A stretch of 33,062 nucleotides of DNA from an uncultured Woeseia sp. (GTDB taxonomy: Bacteria > Pseudomonadota > Gammaproteobacteria > Steroidobacterales > UBA11654). The notes under the pieces are model-generated. The model was not told where the DNA came from. It did no database searches and was given only the letters and a program-made list of their open reading frames with translations. Position 1 is the first letter of the stretch; each line of letters starts with the position of its first letter. A program made the translations under genes and the position numbers. Below are positions 2,470-30,819 of the stretch, piece after piece. Where the stretch lies: assembly GCA_964561815.1 (NCBI GenBank), contig CAZLQT010000003.1:1-33062 (forward strand), in the 5' to 3' direction.

Positions 2470-3654
2470 TTAAGGATTAACACCATACCCTGCTGAATTC
2501 ATTCGATAAGTGATTCCTTTTTTTTGATTCTTTTCCAATTCAATGTATTTTTTGATCTCAGCAGCCTTTGATTTTTTATCAAAATTATCCATAGCTAGCC
2601 CCATTCTATGATTTGATTCCAGTAGGTAATTTATTTCACCCTTCATTATCTTCTGGTAAATTTCTAATGAGTTAGTGATTTCACTTTTATTAAAACTTTT
2701 TGGTTCAGGCAATAATCTTACCAATTCATCTATACATTTGATTGTGGTGTTCATTCCTTGGCTTCTTCCAGGATGAAGTCCGTGACATGCATCACCAATA
2801 AGCACTAGATTATCTTTTGTCCAGCGTTTTGCAATAATCATCGATGGTGGGTAGATGCCTGCTGAATACATCGGTAGGGATTTATATTCTGTGACCAATG
2901 AGCCTATAAAATTTGTGTAATCTTGATCACTCATTTTTTTCCATTCTTTAACCTCATTCCTGTCGATGGTCAGCCCAATTTTACAGCCTCCTTTTGATCG
3001 AGGTATCATTGTGACTATACCTCTATCTGTAAGATAGGTTCTTAGGTTGTTTTCTGAATCTGCTTCGTAGTCTTGAGAAAAAAGTACAGCTAAGGCTCTT
3101 TTATATCGAAATGTTTCTCTTTCTAATTCAAATTTTCGAGCAACGTTTGACGCAACACCATCAGCGCCAACAACTAACTTGGTAGATATAGTGTGCTCAG
3201 TTTTGTCCTTCAATATTAATTGATACAAACTTTCATTATTATCTGTGGATACATGTTGACAATTAATAATAGGCCTATAAAGGCTAAAGTTTTCATCCTT
3301 TGACGCGAATTTTAAAAACACATCACTGATATCTTCATGGTTGATGAACATAAAGAAAGGCTGAGGAATATCTAGTTTTGAGACATTGGCATCCATTAAA
3401 AAATTGGCTGATTCATCAAACCAAAGTGAACCGGCTCTTTTTTTGGCGCCCGCATCAAAGAAATCATCCAAAACACCCCATTGATTAAGAATCTCGCAGA
3501 CAAAAGGCTGAATATGATCACCTCTTGCGGTATCTTGTGGTTTTTCTGATTTTTCAACAAGAACCACTTTATAGCCTTTATCGGTTAAGCAAGCTGCCAT
3601 AGCAGAACCGGCAACTCCGCCTCCGATAATGAGTACATCTGTTTCAATTCTCAT
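2470..3654 (-). CDS. FAD-dependent monooxygenase (UbiH/PHBH-like flavoprotein)
   Basis: GxGxxG (IIGGGVAG), DG motif (VVGADG) and GD motif (LIGDACHGLHPGRSQGMN). Confidence 0.88.
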   Translation of the reverse strand: MRIETDVLIIGGGVAGSAMAACLTDKGYKVVLVEKSEKPQDTARGDHIQPFVCEILNQWGVLDDFFDAGAKKRAGSLWFDESANFLMDANVSKLDIPQPFFMFINHEDISDVFLKFASKDENFSLYRPIINCQHVSTDNNESLYQLILKDKTEHTISTKLVVGADGVASNVARKFELERETFRYKRALAVLFSQDYEADSENNLRTYLTDRGIVTMIPRSKGGCKIGLTIDRNEVKEWKKMSDQDYTNFIGSLVTEYKSLPMYSAGIYPPSMIIAKRWTKDNLVLIGDACHGLHPGRSQGMNTTIKCIDELVRLLPEPKSFNKSEITNSLEIYQKIMKGEINYLLESNHRMGLAMDNFDKKSKAAEIKKYIELEKNQKKGITYRMNSAGYGVNP

Positions 3655-3674: not shown

Positions 3675-4379
3675 TTAAGTGATTTCTAAGCTATCAAGTA
3701 AGTAGTCTGATTTTAAGTGATCCCATCTTATTTTTACAATGATGAAATCGTCACTGTAGGTCCAAATGTGGATTGGTGGCCAGTCATAACCGACCACATC
3801 ACTGTCCCAACTCAATTGAAAATAGTTTGTTTTGAAGGTTCCTGCAGGGACAGATAATTCTTCGTTGCCATGAAAGCTTATATATTTTTCTGTCATCGTT
3901 ATATTTGGTCCTGTATTGCCATGAGGTGTTTTAGAGGTGGTTACACAGTTCTTAAAATGTTGTCTCTCTTCTTTGTTATCCATATCAAAGACGGCACAAC
4001 CCCAAGCATCATTTGCTACAGGGTGTGCGCCAAATGCCATAGGCCAACTATCAACTCTTTGTTGTTGTGTAAATCGACCTGCATCTCTTGTTATAGCTTC
4101 GCATTCAACCATCTGATCTGAGAAGTTATACCAAGTTGTTCCTTGAAAGGAGCCATCAACTGAGAGTCTGACAAAAGCATCTATAGGCAACCAATTCTTA
4201 TCAACGGTGTATACGACGTCTCTAAGGAGTTGGTCTTCATCGATTTCGCATCTAGCTCTTAGTGTCCTAAAACCATGGTTGTCTTTACTGATAGTGAAGT
4301 ACTCTCGCCCTACTTCACCTCGATCATCATGACAATAAAGAACTTTCCCTGAAATATATTTAAATGGCTTTTCACCCAT
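3675..4379 (-). CDS. Uncharacterised soluble protein, paralog of 16799-17533 (C-terminal E.L.VPAGTF motif reminiscent of DUF3108-like beta proteins)
   Basis: 234 aa ORF tightly packed in a co-oriented run; aligns end to end by eye with the 16799 ORF; no signal peptide or TM segment. Confidence 0.8.
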   Translation of the reverse strand: MGEKPFKYISGKVLYCHDDRGEVGREYFTISKDNHGFRTLRARCEIDEDQLLRDVVYTVDKNWLPIDAFVRLSVDGSFQGTTWYNFSDQMVECEAITRDAGRFTQQQRVDSWPMAFGAHPVANDAWGCAVFDMDNKEERQHFKNCVTTSKTPHGNTGPNITMTEKYISFHGNEELSVPAGTFKTNYFQLSWDSDVVGYDWPPIHIWTYSDDFIIVKIRWDHLKSDYLLDSLEIT

Positions 4380-4392
4380 TATAGATTCTGAA

Positions 4393-5454
4393 TTAAGGGT
4401 TCGAAATCTCTTTGACTAACTCGAGGGCAGTTTTATCACTATCAGGAAGAGCAGCGTCTGAGGTCTTAATCGATGTTACTCGGCTCCCCCAGTCAATAAC
4501 GGCAGCAGCTCCTGTTAAACCGCCTCCGAATGCCAGAAACAGCATCTTTGAGTTGGGCTGAACTTTACCTTCATCAAGAGCTTCTGTTAAAGCAATAGGG
4601 ATTGAGCCAGCAGAGGTGTTTCCATATTTATCAAGATTGATAATCATTTTCTCCATTGGAAAGTTACATCTTTTAGCGGTAGCTTCCAAAATTCTTAAGT
4701 TAGCCTGATGCGGTATACAAAGATCAATATCATCAACCGTAAGGTTTGATTCTTCTAAAGCTTCCTGAGCTAATCTAGCCATTGTTTTGACTGCATTTTT
4801 AAATATTTCTTGTCCCTCAAAATGAATACCTAGAAAATAACCATCTTTTGGATCTTTGAATTCCATGCTAGAGCCAAAATTATCAAGTTTTAGCGTATCA
4901 CCCAGAAAGGGATCACAGGTTAGTTTAGACGAGTAGAGCTTAGAGTCGTTATCAACTGCTTCAATCACTACAGCTCCACAACCGTCACCAAATAAAACAG
5001 CAGTATCTCTTGCACTCCAGTCAAGAAAGAAACTCACCTTTTCTCCGCCAACCAAGAGAATGTTTTTCATAACTCCAGAGGAAATCAATGAGTAGGCAGT
5101 GGTTAAGCCATAGACAAAACCAGTGCATGCAGAGTTCAGTTCAAAGGCCGCAGCATGTTTGTTACCGATATTTTCTTGTATTCTTGATGCTGTGGTTGGG
5201 ATGATGTATTGAGGTGTGCAGGTTGCCATAATAACCGCATCTATATCTTGGGGGTCTTTATCAGCCGCTGCAAGTGCGTGTTGGGCTGCAACAGTTCCCA
5301 TATCACTTAATGATGTATGAGCTATTCTCCTCTCTTTAACTCCTGTTCTGGAAATAATCCACTCATCATCCGTATCTAGAAATGTTTCAAGATCTTTATT
5401 TGTAAGTATTGAGGGTGGTGTGCATTTACCCCAACCTGTAATTTCTATACCCAT
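4393..5454 (-). CDS. fabH: 3-oxoacyl-ACP synthase III (FabH), variant with a C-terminal extension
   Basis: DEWIISRTG; catalytic Cys-His-Asn in SACTGF, IPHQANLRI and YGNTSAGSIP; also LFGDG and AFGGGLT. Confidence 0.92.
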   Translation of the reverse strand: MGIEITGWGKCTPPSILTNKDLETFLDTDDEWIISRTGVKERRIAHTSLSDMGTVAAQHALAAADKDPQDIDAVIMATCTPQYIIPTTASRIQENIGNKHAAAFELNSACTGFVYGLTTAYSLISSGVMKNILLVGGEKVSFFLDWSARDTAVLFGDGCGAVVIEAVDNDSKLYSSKLTCDPFLGDTLKLDNFGSSMEFKDPKDGYFLGIHFEGQEIFKNAVKTMARLAQEALEESNLTVDDIDLCIPHQANLRILEATAKRCNFPMEKMIINLDKYGNTSAGSIPIALTEALDEGKVQPNSKMLFLAFGGGLTGAAAVIDWGSRVTSIKTSDAALPDSDKTALELVKEISNP

Positions 5455-5490
5455 TTCTTCATCCCCTATTGAAGAAATTATAGTTTACCT

Positions 5491-6543
5491 TTATTTTTCT
5501 GATACCCCTAGTCGTTCTTGAAGTTTTGGACTGGTTGTTGTGTATTGAAGATGAACTTTTTTACCAGGCTCTATTATGGCTTTTGCAGCAAATGCAGCAA
5601 GCGCTGCCTCATGAAAACCACTGAGGATTAATTTTTTCTTTCCGGGGTAGTTTGAAATATCGCCTATGGCAAAGATTCCTGGAAGATTAGTTTGGAATTT
5701 TTCTGTATCAACCTCTATGGATTTCTTATTGATTTCAAGATTCCATTCAGCAATAGGACCTAGCTTGGGCGATAACCCAAAACAGACAAGCATGCTATCA
5801 GCAGCAATTGTTTTCTCTGCTTTGTCTACTTCTAAGGTTAATGATGTTAAGTTCTCATTATCCGTACTGTAGGATCTGAGCATGCTTTTTTCATAGAGGT
5901 TAATTTTCCCCTCACTTACTAAAGCTTTCATTGTCTTTACTGAAGCAAGAACTCCCCTATACTCATCTCTACGATGGACCAAGGTTACTTTACCCCCAGA
6001 AGCTATAAATTCGCTATCACTTGCAAAGTCGATAGCCCAATCAAGGGCCGAGTCTCCACCACCAAAGATAACGAGATTTTTACCAAAAAAATCTTTCTTG
6101 TTTTTAACTTTATAATGCAGCCATTTCTCTTCAAAGCTATCAATATCTTTTAATTTTATTTTTCTTGCTTGAAAAGAGCCTACGCCACCAGCTATAAAGA
6201 TAGTTTTAGTGATAAATTGGTTGTTAGTGCTAGTGGTAACAATATATTCTTCATTTTTACTCTCGACTGAAACAACTTCTTCTCCCAAATGAATCTCAGG
6301 TTTAAATGGTTCGATTTGCTTCATTAAATTATCAATCAATTCTTCAGCTGAACAAACTGGAATACCAGGGATATCATAAATGGGTTTATCAGGATAAAGT
6401 TCAGAGCATTGGCCACCAATTTTCTCCATACTATCAATGATCACAGAATCAATGCCGAGCAATCCTAATTCAAAGATTTGGAATATGCCGCAAGGGCCAG
6501 CTCCTACTATCAAAGCATCAATGTTTTTGGGTTCTTGACTCAT
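5491..6543 (-). CDS. Ferredoxin/flavodoxin-NADP+ reductase, thioredoxin-reductase-like (TrxB/YumC type)
   Basis: IVGAGPCG, GGQCSELYPDKPIYDIPG, GGGDSALDW, VHRR, GIFAIGD, KLILSGFHEA; no redox CxxC. Confidence 0.88.
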   Translation of the reverse strand: MSQEPKNIDALIVGAGPCGIFQIFELGLLGIDSVIIDSMEKIGGQCSELYPDKPIYDIPGIPVCSAEELIDNLMKQIEPFKPEIHLGEEVVSVESKNEEYIVTTSTNNQFITKTIFIAGGVGSFQARKIKLKDIDSFEEKWLHYKVKNKKDFFGKNLVIFGGGDSALDWAIDFASDSEFIASGGKVTLVHRRDEYRGVLASVKTMKALVSEGKINLYEKSMLRSYSTDNENLTSLTLEVDKAEKTIAADSMLVCFGLSPKLGPIAEWNLEINKKSIEVDTEKFQTNLPGIFAIGDISNYPGKKKLILSGFHEAALAAFAAKAIIEPGKKVHLQYTTTSPKLQERLGVSEK

Positions 6544-7504
6544 TATTTTGTAATCCTTTTAAATTTGAATACATGGGACTAAGTAAATTGGTTATTTGAA
6601 GATCCCAATTCAGTGTCCTCCCTTCAATCTTATATTTTCTTATACTCGCTACTTCCTTCAAGAAAGTAAAACTTTCTTCTATATTTAGATCTAGCTTTAA
6701 TAACTTATTAAGAGAATCAGGTAATAGATTGCTCTCTCCTTCATCCAAAAGATTATGATAAAGGAACTTGGAAAACCAGAAATAGAGTATTCTTAAGTTG
6801 GTCTCTAAATCTTCAGATTTCCAGGAACTAGAAAGCTTTGAAGGCTTTATTTTTTTTGTCAGAAGGTTTTCTAGATCCTTTGCCACTTGTTGGATTTGAC
6901 TATTTAAATACTCAAACCCAAGACTCTTCAGAAGAGTCGGCCTTGAGCCGAATATTTCAATTATTTGTGCCCAACTCTCTTCTGGATTGATGGCCTTCAA
7001 CCAGTTTAATGTTTCTTCTCTGGTCGGATTATTAACTTCAATAATTTGTACTCTACTGATAATGGTCTTAGGAAGATTATTATTAGATTCCGAGATTAAG
7101 ATTATCAATGTATCTTGTGGAGGTTCTTCAAGAATTTTTAATAGACTATTGGCTGCAGCTTTATTCATTGCATCAGCAGGGTTAATTATTGCCACTTTCC
7201 CCTTGCCTTTTAAGCTGGTGAGTAACATAAAGGACTTTAACGATCTTATTTGGTCTATAGAGATTATTTTTTTGCCTTCATCAGGATTAATCAGTTTACA
7301 GTCTGCGACTTTTCCTTCATTAATATCTTCTTCATCGAGATCAATATTTTCTGATAAGAATCCAGCAGCTAAGCTTAAAGCAAGTTTAGACCTACCAATT
7401 CCTCGATCTCCTTTTATTAATAATGCATGTGCACTTTGATGATCTTTTATGGGTTTAGATAGCCTTTTGTATAATTCATTCAGCCATGTCATTTCATTAA
7501 TCAT
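6518..7504 (-). CDS. holB: DNA polymerase III subunit delta'
   Basis: HALLI.G..GIG, ISIDQIR, AANSLLKILEEPP, TIISR; directly downstream of tmk with an ATGA overlap. Confidence 0.9.
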   Translation of the reverse strand: MINEMTWLNELYKRLSKPIKDHQSAHALLIKGDRGIGRSKLALSLAAGFLSENIDLDEEDINEGKVADCKLINPDEGKKIISIDQIRSLKSFMLLTSLKGKGKVAIINPADAMNKAAANSLLKILEEPPQDTLIILISESNNNLPKTIISRVQIIEVNNPTREETLNWLKAINPEESWAQIIEIFGSRPTLLKSLGFEYLNSQIQQVAKDLENLLTKKIKPSKLSSSWKSEDLETNLRILYFWFSKFLYHNLLDEGESNLLPDSLNKLLKLDLNIEESFTFLKEVASIRKYKIEGRTLNWDLQITNLLSPMYSNLKGLQNNESRTQKH

Positions 7505-8127
7505 ATTTTCTTTTTCATAAATTCTAATATGTGAGTTTGGATATTTGATTGAACTTGTTCTATTGGTTTGGTGGCATCAACAATAACCATTCTTTCTTTA
7601 TAAATATCTGCTAACTCGAGATAACCCTCTCTCACTTTTTCAAAAAATAGCTTGTCTTGAGATTCAAAACGGTCATTGGGATTAAGCTTTCTGCGCTTAG
7701 AAATAACATCAATAGGCGCATCTAAAAGAAAAGTCAGATCTGGATTAAAGTCACCCTGGATAATTTTTTTGATTTGATTGACTTGTTCAAACCCTAAGCC
7801 TCTTCCAAAACCTTGATAAGCAAAACTTGCATCAGTAAAACGATCGCAAATAACCCATTTGCCTTCTTCTAGATTAGGCCTGATTACTTCATTAATGTGT
7901 TTTTCTCTTGCCACAAATAGAAGAAGTAATTCACCCATAGGAGAAATACTGTCATCTTTTTCATACAAGAGTGTTTGTCTAATTTTTTCTCCTAATGAGG
8001 TACCTCCAGGTTCTCTGGTCATGTGTGTTTTTATATTTTTTTTATTTAGGAGATCGGATATAAATTTCGCATTGGTTGATTTACCAACACACTCTATCCC
8101 TTCAATTGTTATAAATAAGCCTGACAT
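7501..8127 (-). CDS. tmk: Thymidylate kinase
   Basis: FITIEG...GKST P-loop, TREPGGT, VICDRFTDASFAYQG, PDLTFLLD, DRFE. Confidence 0.96.
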   Translation of the reverse strand: MSGLFITIEGIECVGKSTNAKFISDLLNKKNIKTHMTREPGGTSLGEKIRQTLLYEKDDSISPMGELLLLFVAREKHINEVIRPNLEEGKWVICDRFTDASFAYQGFGRGLGFEQVNQIKKIIQGDFNPDLTFLLDAPIDVISKRRKLNPNDRFESQDKLFFEKVREGYLELADIYKERMVIVDATKPIEQVQSNIQTHILEFMKKKI

Positions 8128-8218
8128 ATGTCTCTATTCTAAATTATCATCTTAAGAACCTAAGATAATTCTTATTATGCATTAAATTAAAGGATTTAAT
8201 TCGAAAATCAAACAATAC

Positions 8219-8241
8219 GAAAAGAAGGATTTATTCCTTCT
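8219..8241 (-). terminator. Possible weak intrinsic terminator after acpP
   Basis: Minus strand AGAAGGA-ATAAA-TCCTTCT followed by TTT, about 30 bp after the acpP stop. Confidence 0.4.
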
Positions 8242-8269
8242 AATTTTCAATAAAAAGGCAGCGGTTTTA

Positions 8270-8503
8270 TTAGTCGGAGTTCTTATTGATATAGTCGATC
8301 GCAGTTTGCACCGTTGATATATTCTCCGCCTCTTCATCAGAGATTTCTATATCAAATTCTTCTTCAAGTGCCATGACTAGTTCAACAGTGTCTAATGAGT
8401 CGGCTCCTAGATCATCTATAAAGCTAGATTCATTGTTGATCTCGTCAACGCCAATACCAAGTTGCTCAGCTACAATGCCTTTAACTCTTTCATCAACGCT
8501 CAT
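8270..8503 (-). CDS. acpP: Acyl carrier protein
   Basis: [20 protein letters not shown] phosphopantetheine site; follows fabG. Confidence 0.98.
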
Positions 8504-8531
8504 GTGTTTCCCCTATATTCAGATATTTCGT

Positions 8532-8559
8532 ATTGTATGAAAAATCATTCTTTTCTCAA
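8532..8559 (-). promoter_or_regulatory. Putative sigma70 promoter for acpP
   Basis: Minus strand TTGAGA-N16-TACAAT, then an AGGGGA RBS before the ATG. Confidence 0.45.
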
Positions 8560-8576
8560 GCAATTTTGGAGAAATA

Positions 8577-9338
8577 TTATTCCATATACATTCCACCATT
8601 TACATGAATGGTTTGACCAGTGATATAAGACCCTGCATTAGAGGCTAAAAAAACAGCAGCTTTAGCTATATCCTCAGGATCTCCAAATCGATCTAAAGGA
8701 ATTTTCTTCATCATCGCTTGATTTAGTTCTTCATTGATGCCCTTAGTCATGTCTGTGGTGATATAACCCGGAGAAATAGTATTTGCAGTTATTCCTCTAG
8801 AGCCAACCTCTAGTGCTATTGATTTTGTAAATCCCTCAAGGGCTGATTTTGTTGCACTATAATGCGCATTCCCTACAGCACCTATTGAACCGACAACAGA
8901 CCCAATGTTAATGATTCTCCCGTGCCTTTTTTTCATCATCCCGCCAATAACTGCTTTAGTCATAAAAAAAACAGAAGACAGATTTGTGTTGATAACCTTA
9001 TTCCAATCCTCTTCTTTAATTCTCATCATTAGGCTTTCCATACTAATGCCTGCATTATTTACTAGGATACTGGGTAGTTCGTTATTTGCTTTAAGATCTT
9101 TCACAATCTGATTAACTTGTTCTGATTTAGAAACATCTAAAACAATACCCCTACCCCTTATCTGGAGTTTCTTAAAACGGTCTGAGATTGATTGAGCTCC
9201 CTCAGGAGTAGTCGCAGTTCCAATCACCAAAGAGTTTGATTGACCAAACAAGTCAGCTATTGATGCTCCAATTCCTCTAGAAGCACCAGTGATAAGTGAA
9301 ATTTCACCTTTAAGCGAGTAATTGTCTAACTCAGTCAT
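8577..9338 (-). CDS. fabG: 3-oxoacyl-ACP reductase
   Basis: ITGASRGIG, LVNNAGI, YSATK catalytic motif, YITGQTIHVNGG; adjacent to acpP. Confidence 0.93.
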   Translation of the reverse strand: MTELDNYSLKGEISLITGASRGIGASIADLFGQSNSLVIGTATTPEGAQSISDRFKKLQIRGRGIVLDVSKSEQVNQIVKDLKANNELPSILVNNAGISMESLMMRIKEEDWNKVINTNLSSVFFMTKAVIGGMMKKRHGRIINIGSVVGSIGAVGNAHYSATKSALEGFTKSIALEVGSRGITANTISPGYITTDMTKGINEELNQAMMKKIPLDRFGDPEDIAKAAVFLASNAGSYITGQTIHVNGGMYME

Positions 9339-9364
9339 ATTTGGATTATACCTTTTGATTAGGT

Positions 9365-10633
9365 CTATCGGTTAGATTCTATTTCCTGATCGTTAATTTT
9401 AAGCATTGAGGATGAGATAAAAGCCACTATTAACAAAACACTAATTAATGCAAAAGGTAATAAATAACCCTGAGTCATGTCGTATAAGACACCTGTTAAA
9501 TATGGCCCTAAACCACCACCTATAGTGTCGAGAATGTTAATGACGCCCATTATTTTTCCTAAGGCTATAATTCCAAATAAGTCTGCTGTTAATAGTTGGA
9601 TCAGAGTATAAAGTCCACCCCACCCTGTCCCATATAGAGCTAGTCCAATCCATATAAAGATAGGGTCTTTGAAAAATAAAGCCAATACGATAAAAATGGA
9701 TCCTATAAGCATTACACCCACCCCTATAAGGAGAACCATTTTTCTTCCAATAATCTCTGCCATCTTTCCGCTTACAACTTTTCCTATAAATCCACCAAAG
9801 AAAATAATAGATACACCTGTGGCTGCTATTTGAGGGGCGTAGTTTTCTTCTCTCATTAATAAGAAAACATGGCCGGTCATAGCTAATATAGAATAGAAAG
9901 TACAAAATGCCATCAGTGATAGTAGCCAGAAATTTTTGGTGCTCAGGGCTTCTGTGAGTGTTAATCCACCTTGCATATTGCTTTGACTAAATTCTTGTTT
10001 CTTTTGTTCTTGCTCTTTTAGTAAGTCTTCTGGACTATCCTTGATAAATAATAGGAGGAAGGGAATGTAACAAAGCGGTATAAGACTGAGCCAAACCATT
10101 ACCTCTCTCCAATCACCAATAGTTAACAGATAAGTATTAATTTGTGGAAATAGACCATTGCCAACACTTGTTCCGGCTAAAAGGATTCCAATAGCTAAGC
10201 CTCGGCTGTTATTGAACCATTTTGAAATTAGTATGACGTTTACAATCATTCCTGAAATACAGAGGACCAGACCCATAAGAACATGGAGTATATACATATC
10301 AGAGAGTGATTGAGCTTGTCCGTAATAAAAGAAAGTAGCTGCAAGAATTAAAAGACCACTGATCATTAATTTTTTTACACCAACTTTATCGGCTAACATT
10401 CCAGAGAAAAATCCAAAAGCTGCTGTTGACCATAAAGTTAATGCATCCCTTAGTTTAAGATCTGCTCTTAAAACATCTTGCCCAGTAATTGCTGAGAGGG
10501 ACTTTATTATTTCTTCTTCAAAAACATAGAGGCCACCTAGTGTTAGGCCATTGGTGAAAGTAATTGTTAGAAAGCAAAAAAACAGGATAACCCATCGATA
10601 ATTTTTCGGATCTTGAGATATTGTGCTGATCAT
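9365..10633 (-). CDS. MFS transporter (MCT/OFA-like)
   Basis: About 12 hydrophobic segments; G.LADKVG.K motif A; WF...RGLAIGI. Confidence 0.88.
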   Translation of the reverse strand: MISTISQDPKNYRWVILFFCFLTITFTNGLTLGGLYVFEEEIIKSLSAITGQDVLRADLKLRDALTLWSTAAFGFFSGMLADKVGVKKLMISGLLILAATFFYYGQAQSLSDMYILHVLMGLVLCISGMIVNVILISKWFNNSRGLAIGILLAGTSVGNGLFPQINTYLLTIGDWREVMVWLSLIPLCYIPFLLLFIKDSPEDLLKEQEQKKQEFSQSNMQGGLTLTEALSTKNFWLLSLMAFCTFYSILAMTGHVFLLMREENYAPQIAATGVSIIFFGGFIGKVVSGKMAEIIGRKMVLLIGVGVMLIGSIFIVLALFFKDPIFIWIGLALYGTGWGGLYTLIQLLTADLFGIIALGKIMGVINILDTIGGGLGPYLTGVLYDMTQGYLLPFALISVLLIVAFISSSMLKINDQEIESNR

Positions 10634-10654
10634 AAATTAATCTTTATTTTTCTC

Positions 10655-10724
10655 TTCATCGAAAGATACATTATTCTATAATTAACCAAAAGCAATGTTT
10701 TTTATTTAATTCGGGTATTAGGAG
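10655..10724 (+). promoter_or_regulatory. Putative sigma70 promoter and RBS for the VOC-like gene
   Basis: TTCATC (10655-10660)-N16-TATAAT (10677-10682); AGGAG at 10720-10724. Confidence 0.4.
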
Positions 10725-10730
10725 TTCATT

Positions 10731-11666
10731 ATGCTGAAATCCATATTAATGGTGACCATGTTAGTTACTAATCTGAGTGTCACTGAGGATGCTTATGAAG
10801 AGTATCTTGGTTACAAAGTTATCGAACAGGGAGTAGTAAGCGATTCCCTTGCGACAATCTGGAATGCTGAGGAGATGATTGATCATCCTTATACAATCAT
10901 GCAGCCAGAAAGTGGTGCAGAAGTTTATTTACGCTTTATAGAGGATCAGCAAACAACGAACTACAAACCCGTTGGAACTCACGGTTGGAATTCTACGGAG
11001 ATACTGGTAGAAGACCCAGATAATCTAGCTAAAGAATTGGTTAATTCTCCTTTTGAAATCATAGGTATGCCATACGATTTATACCCTACTCCTGATGCAC
11101 CAAGAGCAATGCAAGTCCTTGGTCCTTCTAAAGAGATGGTTTATCTTACTCGAATTATTCCAGAGGGATCAGGATTTAATCTTGGTTCAGCTCAATCTTA
11201 CGTTGATCGAGTTTTCATTATGGTGGTTGGCGGTCCTTCAATGGAGGATTTGCAGAACTATTACCGCGATACCTTTGATATGCCTGTGACTGAAGCCTCA
11301 GATTGGACTATAGGTGTTATATCGAGATTAAATGATCTGCCAGAAGATACTACTTATCCACTAGCAGTTGCTGAATTTGAAAAAGATTTCCTTATTGAAT
11401 TAGATGAATACCCAACAGATTCATGCCAATTTTTCTTTTTTTCACTAATCAAAATCTGCGAAGAGGCAATAGTAGCAAGGGAAGTAGCCGAAGGTCATCT
11501 CCCGCCATCGACATCTGTTGTTTCATTTTATGTCGATTCTTTAGATGAAATAGATGTGACTTGGAGAGAAGAGCCAACTGTTATTGATTCATTTCCTTAC
11601 AATAACAGAAGAGTTGGTGTAACTATTGGCGTTGCTGGTGAATGGATTGAATTAATAGAGGAATAA
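10731..11666 (+). CDS. Uncharacterised VOC/glyoxalase-fold-like protein (tandem domains), very acidic
   Basis: VOC-like patterns: VTMLVTNL...AYEEYLGY, YLRFIE, EILVEDPD.L, QVLGPSKEMVYL, YYRDTFDM, C-terminal GVAGEWIELIE. Good RBS. Confidence 0.65.
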   Translation: MLKSILMVTMLVTNLSVTEDAYEEYLGYKVIEQGVVSDSLATIWNAEEMIDHPYTIMQPESGAEVYLRFIEDQQTTNYKPVGTHGWNSTEILVEDPDNLAKELVNSPFEIIGMPYDLYPTPDAPRAMQVLGPSKEMVYLTRIIPEGSGFNLGSAQSYVDRVFIMVVGGPSMEDLQNYYRDTFDMPVTEASDWTIGVISRLNDLPEDTTYPLAVAEFEKDFLIELDEYPTDSCQFFFFSLIKICEEAIVAREVAEGHLPPSTSVVSFYVDSLDEIDVTWREEPTVIDSFPYNNRRVGVTIGVAGEWIELIEE

Positions 11667-11709
11667 CTGATGATCATAGGTTGATCATGAAAGGATTTAA
11701 AAGGTAAGT

Positions 11710-12558
11710 CTAGTCCTCCAAATACTTTGTCTTTTTTAGTATTTTCTCAAATTGGGGATCTTTTTCTTCTAATTGAGACTTAAACGCCTCTTTCATGTCG
11801 TCCTTAAAGTTCATTGCCGTGTTCCACAATGCCACATAGTTCAGAGATTCTTCGATTGAGTGATCTCGATTGTAGTTAATCACTTCCTTTATTCCTGAAA
11901 TAGCTAGCGGTGATTTATTCGCAATTTCTGCAGCCACTGATTCGGCATGATCAATCATCTCATCTTGACTGTCGAATATAGAATTAACTAAGCCGTATTC
12001 AAGAGCTTCCTTTGCAGAGAATCTTCGGCCAGTATAAGCAAGTTCTCTTACCACTCCTTCAGGCATCAAATGAGGCAGCCTTTGCAATGTTCCAACATCA
12101 GCTGCAAGACCAATATTAATTTCTTGTATACAAAAGAAAGCGTCATTGGTTGCATATCTGATATCGCAAGCACTCACCATGTCGACTCCACCACCAATAC
12201 AAGCACCCTGTATTGCTGCAATGACGGGCATTCTAGCTTTTTCTAAACAGCTGATAGTGTATTGAAGATCTCTAGTGACTCTATAGGAGGCCTCATTTTT
12301 TCGACCTAAATTTGTTTCAAGACTGTCCTTTTTAATTTCACCTTCACTAAAGTTAGCAAGATCCATACCAGCACAAAAGTGTTTTCCTTCAGCAGTCAAT
12401 AGAATCACTCTTGCGTCACCTTGATCTGAGATACTATCAATAAGATGTGGAAGTTCAGACCAAAAAGCCTTGGTCATTGTATTCAGCTTTTTGCCTCTAG
12501 ATAGAGACACATGAGCTATATGTCCTTTTAGTTCAAAGTTAAAACAAGTGTAATCCAT
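11710..12558 (-). CDS. Crotonase-family protein, delta3,5-delta2,4-dienoyl-CoA isomerase (ECH1)-like
   Basis: HFCAGMDL, CIGGGVDMVSACDIRY and the ECH1-type signature FCIQEINIGLAADVGTLQRL. Start moved from 12591 to ATG 12558 to avoid overlapping the permease. Confidence 0.88.
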   Translation of the reverse strand: MDYTCFNFELKGHIAHVSLSRGKKLNTMTKAFWSELPHLIDSISDQGDARVILLTAEGKHFCAGMDLANFSEGEIKKDSLETNLGRKNEASYRVTRDLQYTISCLEKARMPVIAAIQGACIGGGVDMVSACDIRYATNDAFFCIQEINIGLAADVGTLQRLPHLMPEGVVRELAYTGRRFSAKEALEYGLVNSIFDSQDEMIDHAESVAAEIANKSPLAISGIKEVINYNRDHSIEESLNYVALWNTAMNFKDDMKEAFKSQLEEKDPQFEKILKKTKYLED

Positions 12559-12563
12559 AGTAA

Positions 12564-13904
12564 TTATTTTAATAGTTTCCTGGCCAGCCAATAAATAACC
12601 ATGGATGAAATAAGACCGGTGATTGCTGGCATAATAAATACAGGTGAGTAGTAAGTGCTGATTGCACCAGCAAGATAAGCTATAAAGGCTGAAGGGTTCC
12701 AGCTAGCAACTCCATCAAAATTACCCTGATGGAATTTTTCTTTATCAATAAGATAATACTCAACTATCACTGGACCAATCAATGGCGGAACTATGCTGGC
12801 TAATAATGCCAAGAAAGCGAAAAAGTATTGATATAAACCTAACCCTAGAATGGTTCCTAAAATTCCGCAGATAACGGTCATTACATGCTTAGGTCTTTTT
12901 AAGATACTAGATGTTTGAATAACGGGAAGATATAAGTTGGCGTCACCTGTTGTCCAAAGTGCAAGACTCATACCAATAATACCAATCCATCCAATAATCA
13001 TTCCTTGTTGCATCAAAATATTTAAATCAACGCCTAGGAAGACAGAGAATAAAGAGTCATTTGAAACAACACCTCCTAAGGCTCCGAGAATCTGCAAAAA
13101 CCATTGAGCGATAATGAGAACTATGAAAGGTATAGCAATTGCTACCCACCCTTTTTTAGCAAACCTTGTGTATTCAGGCATGACTACTGCTCCGACAATC
13201 CAGGAACCGATAACAATATTTATAGCCTCAATCGTAGTCATTTGGCTTTTTGCAGTTATAGCTGTTGATAGCGATTGAAAGCCTGAAAAACCACCTGCCT
13301 GAACTATATTAAGGTAGATAGCATAGAGACCTACAAAAACCAGAACAGCCACTGAGGGAATACTTATTCTTTCGAGCCCTTTAACACCAAAATAAGTTGT
13401 TGCAGTATAGAGAATTCCAGCCAAGATAGCTGTAATGAGAAATGTTGAAGAGGAAAATATTTCAGCTGCCTCAATATTGGGGTGAAGTGCTAGAGTCCAA
13501 GTTATCCCGAAAGCTCCCACCACGATACCTTGCCATCCAATAGTAAGGATAGAGATAAAAAGAACAGGAATATAAGCGCCTACATTTCCATAGACGTATC
13601 TGTAGAGTAACCCACTGTTGCAAGCTGTTTTGTAGCCTATATAACCAACAATTGCCCCTACAATAAAGTTTGCTAAGTTACCCAAAAAGGTTGAAAGGAT
13701 AATATCTGGCCAGAATGGGATACCATTACCCAACTGGCTACCAGTAAATAATCCCGTTACTAAAAAGCCCCACCCAAATGCTAGAGCCAATAAAGGGCCA
13801 GTGTTCCTTCTTTGTTCACTGGATAATGCTGTTAAAGGATTATCAGCACTGTTTTTTTCTGCTTCTATATCTAATGTCCACCATTCTCTAAGTCTTTGTA
13901 ACAT
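12564..13904 (-). CDS. NCS1-family (cytosine permease CodB-like) transporter
   Basis: About 12 TM segments; GLLYRYVYG..G, IGWQG, GVKGLERIS, IVIGSWIVG..MPEYTRF, SIVPPLIG.V..EYY, WNPSA. Confidence 0.82.
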   Translation of the reverse strand: MLQRLREWWTLDIEAEKNSADNPLTALSSEQRRNTGPLLALAFGWGFLVTGLFTGSQLGNGIPFWPDIILSTFLGNLANFIVGAIVGYIGYKTACNSGLLYRYVYGNVGAYIPVLFISILTIGWQGIVVGAFGITWTLALHPNIEAAEIFSSSTFLITAILAGILYTATTYFGVKGLERISIPSVAVLVFVGLYAIYLNIVQAGGFSGFQSLSTAITAKSQMTTIEAINIVIGSWIVGAVVMPEYTRFAKKGWVAIAIPFIVLIIAQWFLQILGALGGVVSNDSLFSVFLGVDLNILMQQGMIIGWIGIIGMSLALWTTGDANLYLPVIQTSSILKRPKHVMTVICGILGTILGLGLYQYFFAFLALLASIVPPLIGPVIVEYYLIDKEKFHQGNFDGVASWNPSAFIAYLAGAISTYYSPVFIMPAITGLISSMVIYWLARKLLK

Positions 13905-13946
13905 CTCTAATACCTTTTAAGGATTGATATTTATCTACGAACAGAA

Positions 13947-13955
13947 ATTCTAGCA
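13947..13955 (-). promoter_or_regulatory. Possible extended -10 promoter for the NCS1 permease
   Basis: Minus strand TGcTAGAAT just past the receptor terminator, about 43 bp upstream of the ATG. Confidence 0.35.
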
Positions 13956-13972
13956 TCAATTAGGATTCATAT

Positions 13973-14005
13973 AAAAAAAACCCCGGTCTCTAGACCGGGG
14001 TTTTT
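13973..14005 (-). terminator. Rho-independent terminator of the TonB-dependent receptor gene
   Basis: Perfect GC-rich stem CCCCGGTC / GACCGGGG with a 4 nt loop; 8 T follow on the minus strand and 5 T on the plus strand; about 20 bp past the stop. Confidence 0.92.
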
Positions 14006-14024
14006 ATTGAATGAACTAACGATA

Positions 14025-16622
14025 TTAAAAATCGTAAGAAATTCTTATGCCAACATTTCTTGGTCTAAGAGGTGTGACCGAGATACCTTGACTTGCCGTG
14101 AATAAGGCGAATGCACTTGGTGAAGCAAAGTCACTCCATCTTGCACAAGCTGTCCAGGCTTCTTCATCGCCAACATTACTGACATAGACTTCCATTCTTA
14201 TGTTATCTCTCTGAATACCACCACGTGCGTTAATGAGACTATAACTATCACAAGTTGCGAAGTTACTTTCATCAGCATAGGTTTCACCAAAATAATTAAG
14301 ATCTGCTCTAAAGAAGGTATCCCAACCATTGCTTAGTGTGTTTTTATACGTAGCACTGAGAGATGCCATATCTTCTGGGTATCTAGGCATTGTGTTACCA
14401 GCCATTTGTGAAAAGCCAGCAAAAGCTGTTACAAAGTTATATTGATAATCATTAAACTCTGAATCAGCCATACCTAATGTACCGTTTAATGACCAGTTGT
14501 CATTAAGCTGAATGTCACCTTCGATTTCAATTCCAGAAATCTCAGAATCACCCATGGCATTAAAGTTTCTCACATTGTAGTAAGGCGTTGACTGATCTAA
14601 CTCAAGCTTTGGAGCACCGACTGATGCACAATACCAGTTAGCAGCTCCAAGATCAGCTGCACGACAGTCTTCATTAATGACTGCTGTACTTCTTCCTTTT
14701 TGGTTTTCCCAATCTGCTTGATAAACAGCAACTGCAAGATTGACTCTTCCAACGGTTCCTTTCCATCCAAATTCAATGCTGTCTAATTCTTCCTCTTTTA
14801 AGAATCGAGCAACATTTGGTTGAGTGGCCTTGTATTGAGCAAGCTCTCTGTCAGTAGCATTTGCTACCGCGTCATTAGCTTTACCTGGGAGAACACCTTT
14901 TGAGTAACTAGCGTAAAACATTGAACTATCACTAGCTTTATACCTAAGGATTATTCGAGGTAAGATATTATCGAAATTCAATTCATTAATCGAAGCTTGT
15001 TGAAGAATTTGTTGAATTTCCTCTTTTTGCCATCTGGCTTCAGCGCTTAGTGTTAGTTGTTCATTAATATCATAATCAACAGCGGCATAAATACCCATTG
15101 ATTGCACATCATCAGAATTATTACCTGATGCACTATCAACGCTGTTACCCGCTCCATATTCGATATGACAACCTCTGCTAGTAAAGTCAAATGGTGCCAA
15201 TGGCGGCCTAATTGAACCTAAGAACCATAGTCCTGGAGGTGCTGGAACACCTGGCGCAACAAAGTAACCTGCCACAGGCATACCAAAGCTGTTTACGCAT
15301 TCTAGAAGAATTGCTCCACCTTGGCCTCTATGAATAAAATGTTGACTGTAACTGTTTGCTCCAACTAGCCATCTTAAATCACTGTCTTGATTACCTAGTA
15401 GCTTAATATCAAAAGTTCGATCTCTAGAGATATAGGGGTCTCTCGCTGTTGAATTACTATGAGCTGTATAGTCAAAGTCTCTTACCCACATTGTAGCAAC
15501 TTTGTTGTAACCCCAGCTTGCCTCAAGAGTCATATCATTATTAAGATCAAATGTAGTATTAACATTGATCCTGTCAATATTTCTTGCCATTCCGTACATT
15601 CCGTCATCCATCATTGGGACTTCACCATCAAAACTTGCTGAGATTGGCAGAGCTGCCATTTTAGCTGCAGCATTACTGCTCATGATTGCGTTCATGTTGA
15701 TAACATTATTTCCACCAAAGTAGTCAACAGCATCACCTGGTCCTGGGACCATTCCACAAATGTAGTTTACAGGGCTTACTGATGGGTTGGCTGGGTCATT
15801 CGTTGTAGCTGAAGTTCCGGTACAGCTATCGTTCCTGTAACCAAGAATATATCCACCTGCTGGCCCACCGTCTCGGTCTTCACTGTGAAAGGCTCTAACT
15901 TTCATTTTCCATGTGTCTCCCTTAGCAACGATGCTACCAATGATAGATTTGGTTTCTTCGGCGCCCATGTCACCACCATCTGCAGCAGTGAAAATTCCGT
16001 CTCTGCTGTAGTGTTTCGCGGCTAACCTAGCAGATAATCCATCTGTAATTGGGCCTTCCATTGAACCATAGATGATATATTCGCCATCTTCACCGAATAA
16101 AAGATCCACATGTCCTTCATTCTCTTCTGAGTTAGGATCCTTGGTGATGTAATTAACAGCACCACCAAAAGTAGATCGGCCATAGAGGGCTGATTGAGGC
16201 CCTTTAACAACTTCAACACGCTCTACCTCTTCAAGAGGTATAGAGTGATATCCGCCAATTACATAAATACCATCCACAAACATTGTTGCGATATTTAATG
16301 AAGGATCTTCAGAGAGGCTATTTACATTCATCCCTCTAAATCTCAGTTGTGAATTAACACGACCTGGTGCTTGTCCACCTTGTGCTGAATGCTGAAAGCC
16401 TGCAACTTGAAGTGAGAGATCTTCTAGATTTTTGAATCCACTTTCTTGGATATCTTCAGCTGAAAAAACTGAGATTGCCAATGGGATTTCAGAAAGATTC
16501 TCTTGACGTTTTCTTGCGGTAACTACTATCTCTTCTAAAGCATCTTGTGCGTAGAGTCCTGGAGAAAGAATTCCAGATAAGCTTACAAACAGGATGGTTG
16601 AAAAAGCTATTAGTTTTTTCAT
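14025..16622 (-). CDS. TonB-dependent outer-membrane receptor
   Basis: Signal peptide ending LYA-Q; TonB box EEIVVTARKR; plug motif ERVEVVKGPQSALYGRSTFGGAVNYIT; C-terminal PRNVGIRISYDF. Confidence 0.96.
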   Translation of the reverse strand: MKKLIAFSTILFVSLSGILSPGLYAQDALEEIVVTARKRQENLSEIPLAISVFSAEDIQESGFKNLEDLSLQVAGFQHSAQGGQAPGRVNSQLRFRGMNVNSLSEDPSLNIATMFVDGIYVIGGYHSIPLEEVERVEVVKGPQSALYGRSTFGGAVNYITKDPNSEENEGHVDLLFGEDGEYIIYGSMEGPITDGLSARLAAKHYSRDGIFTAADGGDMGAEETKSIIGSIVAKGDTWKMKVRAFHSEDRDGGPAGGYILGYRNDSCTGTSATTNDPANPSVSPVNYICGMVPGPGDAVDYFGGNNVINMNAIMSSNAAAKMAALPISASFDGEVPMMDDGMYGMARNIDRINVNTTFDLNNDMTLEASWGYNKVATMWVRDFDYTAHSNSTARDPYISRDRTFDIKLLGNQDSDLRWLVGANSYSQHFIHRGQGGAILLECVNSFGMPVAGYFVAPGVPAPPGLWFLGSIRPPLAPFDFTSRGCHIEYGAGNSVDSASGNNSDDVQSMGIYAAVDYDINEQLTLSAEARWQKEEIQQILQQASINELNFDNILPRIILRYKASDSSMFYASYSKGVLPGKANDAVANATDRELAQYKATQPNVARFLKEEELDSIEFGWKGTVGRVNLAVAVYQADWENQKGRSTAVINEDCRAADLGAANWYCASVGAPKLELDQSTPYYNVRNFNAMGDSEISGIEIEGDIQLNDNWSLNGTLGMADSEFNDYQYNFVTAFAGFSQMAGNTMPRYPEDMASLSATYKNTLSNGWDTFFRADLNYFGETYADESNFATCDSYSLINARGGIQRDNIRMEVYVSNVGDEEAWTACARWSDFASPSAFALFTASQGISVTPLRPRNVGIRISYDF

Positions 16623-16798
16623 AATTTTATCCCCACATAATTTAAAATTAATGCAATTTAACCTAATTGATCATATTGCAAGATTAATATTACACCAATA
16701 ACTGAATTTAAAGTTAAAGTTTTATCTGTATTTAAAGATTAATATTTCTAAAAAGAATAAGTGAGTAATTTTTTAAAGATCCAGAAAATCTTATAAAA

Positions 16799-17533
16799 TT
16801 AGCTGTTTTCAAGTTCTACCAATTCATAATAAGTCTGCATATATCCCCCCACAGCTCCCTTGAGGAAAATATAATCACCGTCATTGGTGCACCAAACATC
16901 ATAGGGTGGATGTTCTTGAGGTAAACCAGGGGTTCCAACAAATCTGTAATGAAGGGCATCAAAGGTTCCTGCCTTAACTGTAACTGATTCTTCTCCAACA
17001 AATTCTATGTTGGAGGTAATAGAGAAAAGCATTGGCCCAGTTGCGCCTCTATGATCTGGCGAAGATAACATCATTTCACCAATGTTTTGAGGGTTTTCAG
17101 ATTTTGAACGATCGAAAAGCCTCAAATGCCAGGCATCACAAGCAATGGCATGATTTTGGAATGTTTTGAGTTGCCCTTGAGTTTTCATTTTTTGGCTTAC
17201 CCGTCCCTCTAGCAATGTATCTGCTTCACATTCAGCATATCCATCACCAAAATTGAACCATCCTGAGCCCATGAATTTGTCATCGACAGAAATCCTCACA
17301 AAGCAATCTAGTGGCAACCAATTTTCATCCAATGAGTACGTTATATCTCTCATAACTGCTGGTCGGTCATCTATTTCACAATGAGCTACTATTTTTCGAT
17401 GCCCATTGCTGTGTTTGTTAATAATGAAATATTCTCGACCTCGTTCTTGGCCCTTACGATCTTCTTTATCACTTAAATAAATAATTTTACCGATAACGGT
17501 TTTGTGATCTTTTTGTAAAATTTTGTCATTCAT
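16799..17533 (-). CDS. Uncharacterised soluble protein, paralog of 3675-4379
   Basis: Shares GREYF, CEID, NWLP.D.FVR.SVD, ECEA, H...DAW, G.TGP and V.AGTF with the 3675 ORF. Likely start ATG 17533 (ATGAATGA overlap with the lipoprotein stop) rather than 17554. Confidence 0.8.
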   Translation of the reverse strand: MNDKILQKDHKTVIGKIIYLSDKEDRKGQERGREYFIINKHSNGHRKIVAHCEIDDRPAVMRDITYSLDENWLPLDCFVRISVDDKFMGSGWFNFGDGYAECEADTLLEGRVSQKMKTQGQLKTFQNHAIACDAWHLRLFDRSKSENPQNIGEMMLSSPDHRGATGPMLFSITSNIEFVGEESVTVKAGTFDALHYRFVGTPGLPQEHPPYDVWCTNDGDYIFLKGAVGGYMQTYYELVELENS

Positions 17534-18035
17534 CTTCTTTCTCATTCCCTTCATCTAATTCACGTGTTATTTGAGGTGATGAATCAGTTTCAGGCTCTAA
17601 TTCTTGCATAGGCTCTGCCTTACCAAAACGAACCATTAGATTGTAGTGAGCTGTTTCATCAAGTTCTGTGACTGACATAATGGAAAATCTTTCTGGAAAG
17701 ATGTTATCCGGAATAATTAGTTCATCCCCTGCAAAGCCACAGACTCTTCCCGTAAATGATTTAAAACTAATCATGTCCATTCCGCCATCATCCAGGTTTG
17801 GAGGACTTACCTGTAAATGATAGGACCTTGATTTTGGTCTACCGTAAACAATTAAATTGCCTCTATCAAGAATTCTGTAATCTCGGATATCTATGGTATT
17901 AAAACAACCTGCCTTTTTAGGCACAGACCCGAAATTGTCATCGTCTCTTATTTCAGACTCATTACTGCAGGCATTTAGAGTGATAAGTATTAAAAATAAA
18001 GTCAGAATTTTATGTTTTCTTTCTCTCTTTAACAT
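17526..18035 (-). CDS. Putative lipoprotein (DUF6491-like)
   Basis: Basic N-terminus, hydrophobic stretch, lipobox LNA-C; GCF..DIRDYR..D..NLIV and VCG. Family assignment is from motif memory only. Confidence 0.65.
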   Translation of the reverse strand: MLKRERKHKILTLFLILITLNACSNESEIRDDDNFGSVPKKAGCFNTIDIRDYRILDRGNLIVYGRPKSRSYHLQVSPPNLDDGGMDMISFKSFTGRVCGFAGDELIIPDNIFPERFSIMSVTELDETAHYNLMVRFGKAEPMQELEPETDSSPQITRELDEGNEKEDE

Positions 18036-18140
18036 TTTGATTAAATTTACTGTAATTTTTTATAATTTTCAGTCAGAATACCACTCTAAAAATTATATAT
18101 CTCTACTTCTTTAAAGCAGAAAATTACTACGAACTGAAAG

Positions 18141-30809: not shown

Positions 30810-30819
30810 GTTGACTCCC

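What the first reader, a model, noticed from the sequence alone, without database searches (positions are those of the whole stretch)
3675..17533. Two paralogs of an uncharacterised, enzyme-like family, each in a different uptake/catabolism module
Seen: ORFs 3675-4379 and 16799-17533 align over their whole length: GK..Y..D, GREYF.I.K...G.R...A.CEID, RD..Y..D.NWLP.D.FVR.SVD..F.G..W.NF.D...ECEA.T...GR..Q, F..H....DAW...FD, S....G.TGP, I.F.G.E...V.AGTF, PP...W...D, D.I..K, Y.L..LE. Neither has a signal peptide. One heads the monooxygenase-crotonase-Rieske-MFS run; the other is coupled to a lipoprotein just upstream of the TonB receptor and NCS1 permease. Inference: the conserved Glu/Arg/Asp/His/Cys/Trp set on a predicted beta-rich scaffold suggests a catalytic or ligand-binding pocket. 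The divergence between copies suggests an old duplication with different substrates. I cannot name a characterised member.
Basis: partly seen in the sequence, partly recalled or inferred. Interest (0 to 1): 0.72.

Follow-up and report, generated by a model that had tools for sequence, protein, structure and literature searches.

The report
Unnamed beta-spiral enzymes of nitrogen-ring breakdown
Two genes in this marine bacterium belong to an unnamed, widespread protein family, predicted to fold into a barrel with five conserved polar residues, that likely acts as an enzyme in an undescribed pathway for breaking down nitrogen-containing ring compounds.

Summary
Both ORFs are real (minus strand) and 38% identical (E 5e-49). 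A third copy lies on another contig. They belong to a large unnamed family (627 clusters at 50% identity, up to 14 matches per genome). No Pfam or NCBIfam model reaches its cut-off. The model (pLDDT 92.5) is a beta-spiral like Brucella EipB (Z 16.7) and PA1994 (Z 15.3). Only the C-terminal 51 columns align to DUF3108. That they share one cavity is inferred, not shown. Copy 1 is lost in 7 of 14 relatives that keep the monooxygenase, and TonB receptors are not enriched nearby. The copies come from different old subfamilies, not a local duplication. The stronger link is to an undescribed ~41-kb catabolic island on sphingomonad plasmids, whose genes lie scattered in this genome. Best reading: a cofactor-free enzyme of N-heterocycle breakdown (0.5). 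The scan met this family before on other DNA (e1-2249741).

The parts
3675..4379 (-). Family copy 1 (P0001, 234 aa); conserved Glu26, Arg53, His119, Asp124, Ser149; a subfamily seen here only in the host's genus; accessory
16799..17533 (-). Family copy 2 (P0002, 244 aa); conserved Glu34, Arg62, His128, Asp133, Ser158; subfamily shared across the order; start at 17533 matches ortholog starts
17526..18035 (-). DUF6491 predicted lipoprotein; overlaps the start of copy 2 by 8 bases; adjacent to it in 15 of 15 close loci, separated or absent in other families
14025..16622 (-). TonB-dependent receptor; variable neighbour of copy 2 (present in 9 of 13 loci with sequence downstream)
12564..13904 (-). 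NCS1 permease; variable neighbour
4393..5454 (-). fabH; ends 13 bases upstream of copy 1 on the same strand (housekeeping neighbour)
2470..3654 (-). FAD-dependent monooxygenase; kept in relatives that have lost copy 1
1700..2455 (-). Crotonase; follows the monooxygenase in two relatives, absent where monooxygenase and Rieske genes are adjacent
624..1700 (-). Rieske oxygenase alpha subunit; best NCBIfam match GbcA, far below its cut-off
10731..11666 (+). Double VOC-like protein; 31% identical to the island gene three places upstream of the family gene on pJE1
21034..21759 (-). Unnamed predicted four-helix membrane protein; 26% identical to the island gene directly upstream of the family gene on pJE1
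28929..32895 (-). Hydantoinase/oxoprolinase A and B pair (ATP-dependent lactamase type); 52% and 60% identical to the island pair

Best explanation
The two genes encode old paralogs of an unnamed family, predicted to fold as a beta-spiral barrel plugged by one helix, that likely work as cofactor-free enzymes on an intermediate of an undescribed pathway for breaking down nitrogen-containing rings. Shown: the homology, the invariant Glu-Arg-His-Asp-Ser set, and the co-occurrence with the island. Predicted: the fold. Inferred mechanism: Arg62, held by Glu34 on the inner face of the sheet, binds a carboxylate or oxyanion of the substrate. His128, paired with Asp133 at the start of the central helix, acts as general acid or base under a Gly-rich lid (158-167). 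The step would be a hydrolysis, elimination or rearrangement upstream of lactam, imide and amide hydrolases that lead to substituted maleates. The copies are scattered pieces of that pathway, not members of two local modules.
For: Invariance at 23-50% identity: R62 and D133 96 of 96, E34 and H128 95 of 96, S158 90 of 96. E34 and R62 sit on the hydrophobic face of amphipathic strands (neighbours F36 1.00, V60 0.99, I64 0.92 hydrophobic). Covariation puts E34, C52 and R62 in one row across three strands (hairpin registers G15-F36, R33-E53, I54-V60). It also puts the helix on that face (I48-A131, L68-W135) and the lid against the hairpin beside R62 (P58-R162, V60-A164). PA1994 has its conserved pocket at the central helix (PMC2954207). 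VioE is an enzyme on the related LolA fold (PMC6363788; Z 9.7). 89 of 96 members lack an export signal. Context: the gene lies in a ~41-kb island with lactamase, PuuE-like and isochorismatase-type hydrolases, two LeuCD pairs and lyases. The run VOC-hydrolase-membrane protein-family gene recurs on five plasmids and in G1083. Island homologs at 40% identity or more lie near 9 of 34 family contexts against 2 of 40 control windows (p 0.011). In family f310, 23 of 23 genomes with the gene have the island's PuuE-like hydrolase, against 20 of 128 without it; 13 of 23 have it within 10 kb. One member is fused to a VOC domain.
Against: No coordinates were available, and a crude contact-graph test of clustering was inconclusive (p 0.06-0.16). 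No activity or substrate was tested. No neighbour is fixed; single-family enrichments (SDR 9 of 34 vs 2 of 40, p 0.011) would not survive correction for the many families tested. The host genus lacks a close PuuE-like ortholog (best 35-37% in 5 of 5 genomes), and G000 shows no match to it or to the isochorismatase (77% complete). In the order, only 3 of 5 family-bearing genomes had it, and 1 of 5 without the family did. The f310 query was taken from beside a family gene, and kin are not independent. Most characterised proteins of this fold superfamily are binders or carriers. Copy 1 is dispensable.
Confidence: 0.5

Rival explanations
1. A non-catalytic binding or carrier protein of the same pathway: the polar set grips a reactive or poorly soluble intermediate and hands it between the membrane protein, the VOC protein and the hydrolases; paralogs bind different compounds.
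For: The fold superfamily mostly binds ligands (PMC6363788), and EipB and PA1994 are proposed binders. The family has cytoplasmic and exported forms (7 of 96 with TAT-like or Sec-like extensions). It is dispensable in host relatives, and 20 of 43 genomes with the hydrolase lack it.
Against: Five near-invariant polar residues, including a covarying His-Asp pair, persist across subfamilies at about 25% identity and in varied gene settings; a binder of different ligands would be expected to vary them (inference).
Confidence: 0.27
2. A heme-, bilin- or metal-binding protein: His128 is a cofactor ligand or stacks on a pyrrole ring, Asp133 holds pyrrole NH groups and Arg62 a propionate.
For: One invariant His; TAT-like signals in 6 of 96 members; CpeT-like neighbours in 3 loci.
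Against: There is only one conserved His, and Cys52 varies. No heme-binding protein is among the top fold matches. No heme oxygenase was seen among the genes scanned in or beside the island.
Confidence: 0.13
3. An envelope or lipid-handling protein like EipB or LolA, with the conserved residues serving as structural salt bridges and the catabolic neighbours being incidental.
For: The best structural match is EipB (Z 16.7, rmsd 3.4, 208 aligned); copy 2 overlaps a lipoprotein gene.
Against: There is no signal peptide in either copy or in 89 of 96 members. No profile match to EipB_like was found, and the conserved Cys pair of EipB has no counterpart. Distribution is patchy and multi-copy, with island linkage.
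Confidence: 0.1

Closest known systems
Brucella EipB (DUF1849, PF08904, PDB 6NTR)
   Same: Predicted beta-spiral of about 14-15 strands around a helix; Foldseek E 6e-8; VIA Z 16.7, rmsd 3.4, 208 aligned, 9% identity.
   Different: EipB is periplasmic, has a conserved disulfide and a mostly hydrophobic lumen (bioRxiv 10.1101/551135, passages). Here: mostly no signal, no conserved Cys pair, a polar invariant set, and no profile match.
Pseudomonas PA1994 (DUF1089, PF06475, PDB 2H1T)
   Same: Spiral beta-roll, cytoplasmic, polar pocket at the central helix; Z 15.3, rmsd 4.2, 171 aligned; Atlas feature score 0.95-0.96 to clusters where 26-35% of members carry PF06475.
   Different: About 55 residues shorter. 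Its pocket is Asp101, Asp103, Tyr147, not Glu-Arg-His-Asp-Ser. Profile match is only 5.8% probability over 55 columns. Its function is itself untested.
DUF3108 (PF11306)
   Same: C-terminal 51 columns align at 95.7% probability, E 1e-8; RefSeq labels the pJE1 homolog WP_254108252.1 'DUF3108 domain-containing'.
   Different: No member tested reaches the 26-bit cut-off (best 22.2). All five invariant residues lie outside the aligned part. G000 has a separate true DUF3108 gene on C93.
VioE (violacein biosynthesis, LolA-like fold)
   Same: Cytosolic enzyme on a LolA-type curved sheet (PMC6363788, passages); Z 9.7.
   Different: Smaller 11-strand clam with a hydrophobic pocket, 6% identity, biosynthetic; a precedent only.
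Maleamate and dimethylmaleate routes of pyridine-ring catabolism (NicF-type amidase, LeuCD-type maleate hydratases, 2,3-dimethylmalate lyase; names and functions recalled, from no call)
   Same: The island carries the same enzyme families: isochorismatase, two LeuCD pairs, an ICL-family lyase and an Asp/Glu racemase-family gene.
   Different: The island adds two PuuE-like hydrolases, a lactamase pair, a methyltransferase and several unnamed proteins; no equivalog model other than LeuC is passed; the substrate is unknown.

Membership tests
DUF3108 (PF11306) | Pfam score over the 26-bit cut-off | tested here: not met
   P0002 14.4 bits, P0001 no match; best of 43 + 47 + 4 members 22.2 bits
DUF3108 (PF11306) | Profile homology along the domain | tested here: inconclusive
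   95.7% probability but only residues 173-228, against an alignment of 8 members
PA1994 / Glycolipid_bind (PF06475) | Spiral beta-roll around a central helix | tested here: met
   Model vs 2H1T: Z 15.3, rmsd 4.2, 171 aligned
PA1994 / Glycolipid_bind (PF06475) | Pfam match and the D-I-D...TPFTNT pocket motif | tested here: not met
   No Pfam match; none in G000; profile probability 5.8%; motif absent from the consensus
EipB_like (PF08904) | Beta-spiral fold | tested here: met
   Z 16.7, rmsd 3.4, 208 aligned; Foldseek E 6e-8
EipB_like (PF08904) | Sequence profile, signal peptide and conserved disulfide | tested here: not met
   Profile probability 0.6%; no signal in either copy or in 89 of 96 members, no conserved Cys pair
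Cofactor-free enzyme on a LolA-like fold (works like VioE) | Conserved residues gathered in one cavity | tested here: inconclusive
   Strand faces and covariation point that way; contact-graph test p 0.06-0.16; no coordinates available
Cofactor-free enzyme on a LolA-like fold (works like VioE) | Catalytic turnover | not testable with these tools
   Needs an assay
Component of the sphingomonad catabolic island | Physical linkage and co-occurrence with island genes | tested here: met
   Met for homologs:
Component of the sphingomonad catabolic island | Full ring-opening gene set present in the host | tested here: inconclusive
   G000 has homologs of HydAB, LeuCD, HMG-CoA lyase, CoA transferase, methyltransferase and cupin; not found: PuuE-like pair, isochorismatase, PrpD, HapK (77% complete); 5 of 5 relatives have only a 35-37% match to the PuuE-like gene

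The most novel reading that the evidence does not exclude
The island is a bacterial route for consuming tetrapyrrole debris (bilins, heme or chlorophyll breakdown products). Lactam and imide hydrolases, an amidase, two maleate hydratases and two lyases would dismantle the two differently substituted maleimides that such pigments yield. This family would be the first enzyme on the EipB/PA1994 beta-spiral, acting on a pyrrolic intermediate through its His-Asp pair and Arg, and a marker for pigment recycling by streamlined ocean bacteria.
Probability: 0.12. Interest if true: 0.85.

Novelty: new variant of a known kind. Interest (0 to 1): 0.5.

Why it matters
The two best fold matches, EipB and PA1994, have no established biochemical activity in the papers read, so a catalytic member would give this fold a first reaction. 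The family is kept in two to five matches per genome in many 1.1-1.6 Mb marine genomes, which suggests use in the ocean carbon and nitrogen cycle. The practical gain is a test system: a compact ~41-kb island with a close homolog (about 50% identical) sits on plasmids of cultured sphingomonads, so the pathway and the protein can be studied by ordinary genetics. The window's local gene order itself is ordinary mosaic synteny.

Tried and rejected
Library searches with no match over cut-off: Pfam, NCBIfam, PDB sequences (13, 25, 66; best E 0.029 on the shared C-terminal hairpin). Search for long fusions of 530-2000 aa: none, weak evidence. Single-sequence fold of copy 1 failed (pLDDT 37), so its fold rests on homology to copy 2. 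Homodimer prediction gave no verdict: score 0.76, one control 0.71. Contact-graph clustering test inconclusive. Promoter scan at 16500-18200 found no more sites than shuffles (5 vs 6.9). RNA contigs from 4 of 22 listed runs cover part of copy 1 (X1, 3906-4142) and little of copy 2; contigs cannot show level or co-transcription. Rejected: local duplication (I had seen a FastTree, before naming the group); copy 1 as head or required part of the monooxygenase-Rieske run; TonB coupling; catalytic Cys. Seven of the 12 class-level matches were weak partial hits; three of them coincide with true DUF3108 genes. Paper searches that found no description of the family or island, read as listings only: EipB/DUF1849/PA1994 (38), DUF1838/6491/4437/3108/6134 (72), LolA-like enzymes, Woeseiales (77), DUF1089/PF06475 (102), pJE1/TomTYG65 (110), biliverdin-maleimide catabolism (113, 0 papers), hematinic acid and tetrapyrrole terms (117), bilin-degrading bacteria (121). 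The library lacks most subscription journals, so a published account of the island may exist. No supplements were read.

Full report
Observation. Both ORFs exist at the stated coordinates on the minus strand and align over 220 columns at 38% identity, E 5e-49. A third copy lies on G000:C38 and is cut by the contig end. The closest named record carrying copy 2 is titled Woeseia sp. (97% identity). G000 is 1.19 Mb and 77% complete. Copy 2 overlaps a DUF6491 lipoprotein gene by 8 bases. Copy 1 starts 13 bases after fabH.

Family. A profile of 43 members found 627 clusters at 50% identity. Matches occur in 84 of 201 genomes of the order, with up to 14 per genome, in 6 of 401 across the phylum, and in 23 of 151 of family f310. 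No Pfam or NCBIfam model is passed. In 96 full-length members (98 less one fusion and one tandem double), R62 and D133 are invariant, E34 and H128 occur in 95, S158 in 90, and all five in 88. C52 occurs in only 67. Seven members have N-terminal extensions, six of them TAT-like. One member is fused to a VOC domain and one is a tandem double; each is a single observation.

Fold. AlphaFold2 on copy 2 gave pLDDT 92.5, with long strands and one central helix. The best matches are EipB (Z 16.7, rmsd 3.4, 208 aligned) and PA1994 (Z 15.3, rmsd 4.2, 171 aligned), above the porin and LolA-type rows (Foldseek). By profile, only residues 173-228 match DUF3108 (95.7%). PF06475 scores 5.8% and PF08904 0.6%. 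This is therefore a separate family within the LolA/DUF3108/beta-spiral group.

Pocket. Coordinates were not returned, so I used strand pattern and covariation (375 rows, 218 effective). E34 and R62 interrupt the hydrophobic face of their strands. The hairpin registers place E34, C52 and R62 in one row. The helix packs on that face (I48-A131, L68-W135), with H128 at its start. The Gly-rich loop 158-167 touches the hairpin beside R62 (P58-R162, V60-A164). PA1994 has its conserved pocket at the central helix (PMC2954207, parts 2 and 3 of 4 read). Against this, a contact-graph test was inconclusive (p 0.06-0.16). One shared cavity is inferred, not shown.

History. In a 56-row tree, copy 2 nests with homologs from other families and classes, copy 1 forms its own long branch, and orthologs of the C38 copy group with f310 members. 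One clade for copies 1 and 2 is rejected (p-AU 5e-5). The paralogs are old, and their closeness in the window is not a local duplication.

Local modules. Of 15 fabH loci, 14 have the monooxygenase beside fabH. Copy 1 is intact in 7, a remnant in 2 and absent in 5. The Rieske gene persists in four of those lacking it. Beside copy 2, DUF6491 is adjacent in 15 of 15 close loci, and the TonB receptor follows in 9 of the 13 with sequence downstream. G419 has the receptor but no family match. In other families the two genes are separated or the lipoprotein is absent. Across 81 windows merged into 34 contexts, against 40 control windows from the same genomes, TonB receptors were not enriched within about 5.9 kb (3 vs 9). 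SDR (9 vs 2), MDR (7 vs 2), an unnamed membrane protein (6 vs 1) and VOC proteins (4 vs 0) were more frequent, at uncorrected p 0.01-0.05. Genes were called with my own script, and 130 of 327 neighbour clusters were scanned against Pfam.

The island. tblastn found the family on 8 of 72,556 plasmids, all from sphingomonads. On pJE1 the gene lies in a ~41-kb block of 35 genes. The block holds two PuuE-like hydrolases, an isochorismatase, two LeuCD pairs, ICL-family and HMG-CoA lyases, a CoA transferase, a lactamase-type hydantoinase pair, FAD oxidoreductases, a methyltransferase, a cupin, MFS and TonB transporters and GntR. The run VOC-hydrolase-membrane protein-family gene recurs on pTomTYG65b (same layout as pJE1, so hardly independent), on three Novosphingobium plasmids and in G1083. 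pSA1 has a second, divergent copy beside a methyltransferase, FAD oxidoreductase, isochorismatase, P450 and Rieske gene. The island was found after the contexts were fixed. Its homologs lie in 17, 9 and 5 of 34 contexts at 30, 40 and 50% identity, against 7, 2 and 0 of 40 controls. In f310, 23 of 23 genomes with the family have the PuuE-like gene, against 20 of 128 without; within one genus it is 10 of 10 vs 1 of 19. The window itself holds island homologs: the hydantoinase pair (52%, 60%), the VOC protein and the membrane protein. Against a strict link, the host genus lacks a close PuuE-like ortholog, and the order is mixed (3 of 5 with the family, 1 of 5 without).

Mechanism. From recalled knowledge (no call), isochorismatase-type amidases, LeuCD-type hydratases and ICL-type lyases process maleamate and substituted maleates in pyridine catabolism. 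With lactam and imide hydrolases, this points to breakdown of nitrogen rings. I commit to a cofactor-free acid-base enzyme in the upper part of such a pathway (0.5). The rivals are a carrier of an intermediate (0.27), a tetrapyrrole or metal binder (0.13) and an envelope protein (0.1). VioE shows that an enzyme can use a related fold, while most relatives are binders (PMC6363788, passages). EipB is periplasmic with a disulfide (bioRxiv 10.1101/551135, passages).

Novelty. The fold is known, the family is unnamed, and RefSeq files one member loosely under DUF3108. Ten paper searches found no account of the family or the island, within a library that lacks most subscription journals. Verdict: a real, unnamed, enzyme-like family whose interest lies in the island link and the cultured hosts, not in the window's gene order. 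Interest 0.5.

Noticed in passing
window 624-2455: The Rieske gene is only 61% identical to that of G566 and G538, whose fabH is 97-99% identical, but 84% to G573 and G492. The crotonase follows the monooxygenase in G436 and G419 too. This suggests recombination of the segment.
   Followed up: partly
L222:2538-2729 and L226:2570-2729: Short remnants of copy 1 between fabH and the monooxygenase in G573 and G531, from two different sub-branches, so probably two separate losses.
   Followed up: partly
window 21034-21759: Unnamed predicted membrane family with a conserved H...YWLG.D.GV motif, three copies in G000, no Pfam match at 1e-10; the most specific neighbour of the family and directly upstream of it on the island.
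   Followed up: partly
G000:C38:11830-12540 (L041): Third copy; its orthologs group with f310 members from another class (support 100/99), a possible transfer; direction not tested.
   Followed up: partly
L232 and L238 (pJE1 3381-44799); L233: A ~41-kb catabolic block of unknown substrate with the same layout on plasmids of a Sphingomonas and a Sphingobium, bordered by plasmid-backbone genes.
   Followed up: partly
L239:33684-47000 (pSA1): A second cluster with a divergent family gene, methyltransferase, P450, isochorismatase, amidohydrolase and Rieske gene.
   Followed up: no
G566:C1:193307-195900: The TonB receptor ortholog is in two frames with a stop; pseudogene or assembly error.
   Followed up: no
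L087 and L088 (G410): Two family copies lie near nitrile hydratase genes in a genome with 14 matches.
   Followed up: no
G000 contigs C6, C7, C8, C10: Other unnamed island-type genes in this genome: methyltransferase with its small partner (C6), DUF4437 cupin (C8), DUF1838 proteins (C7, C10).
   Followed up: no
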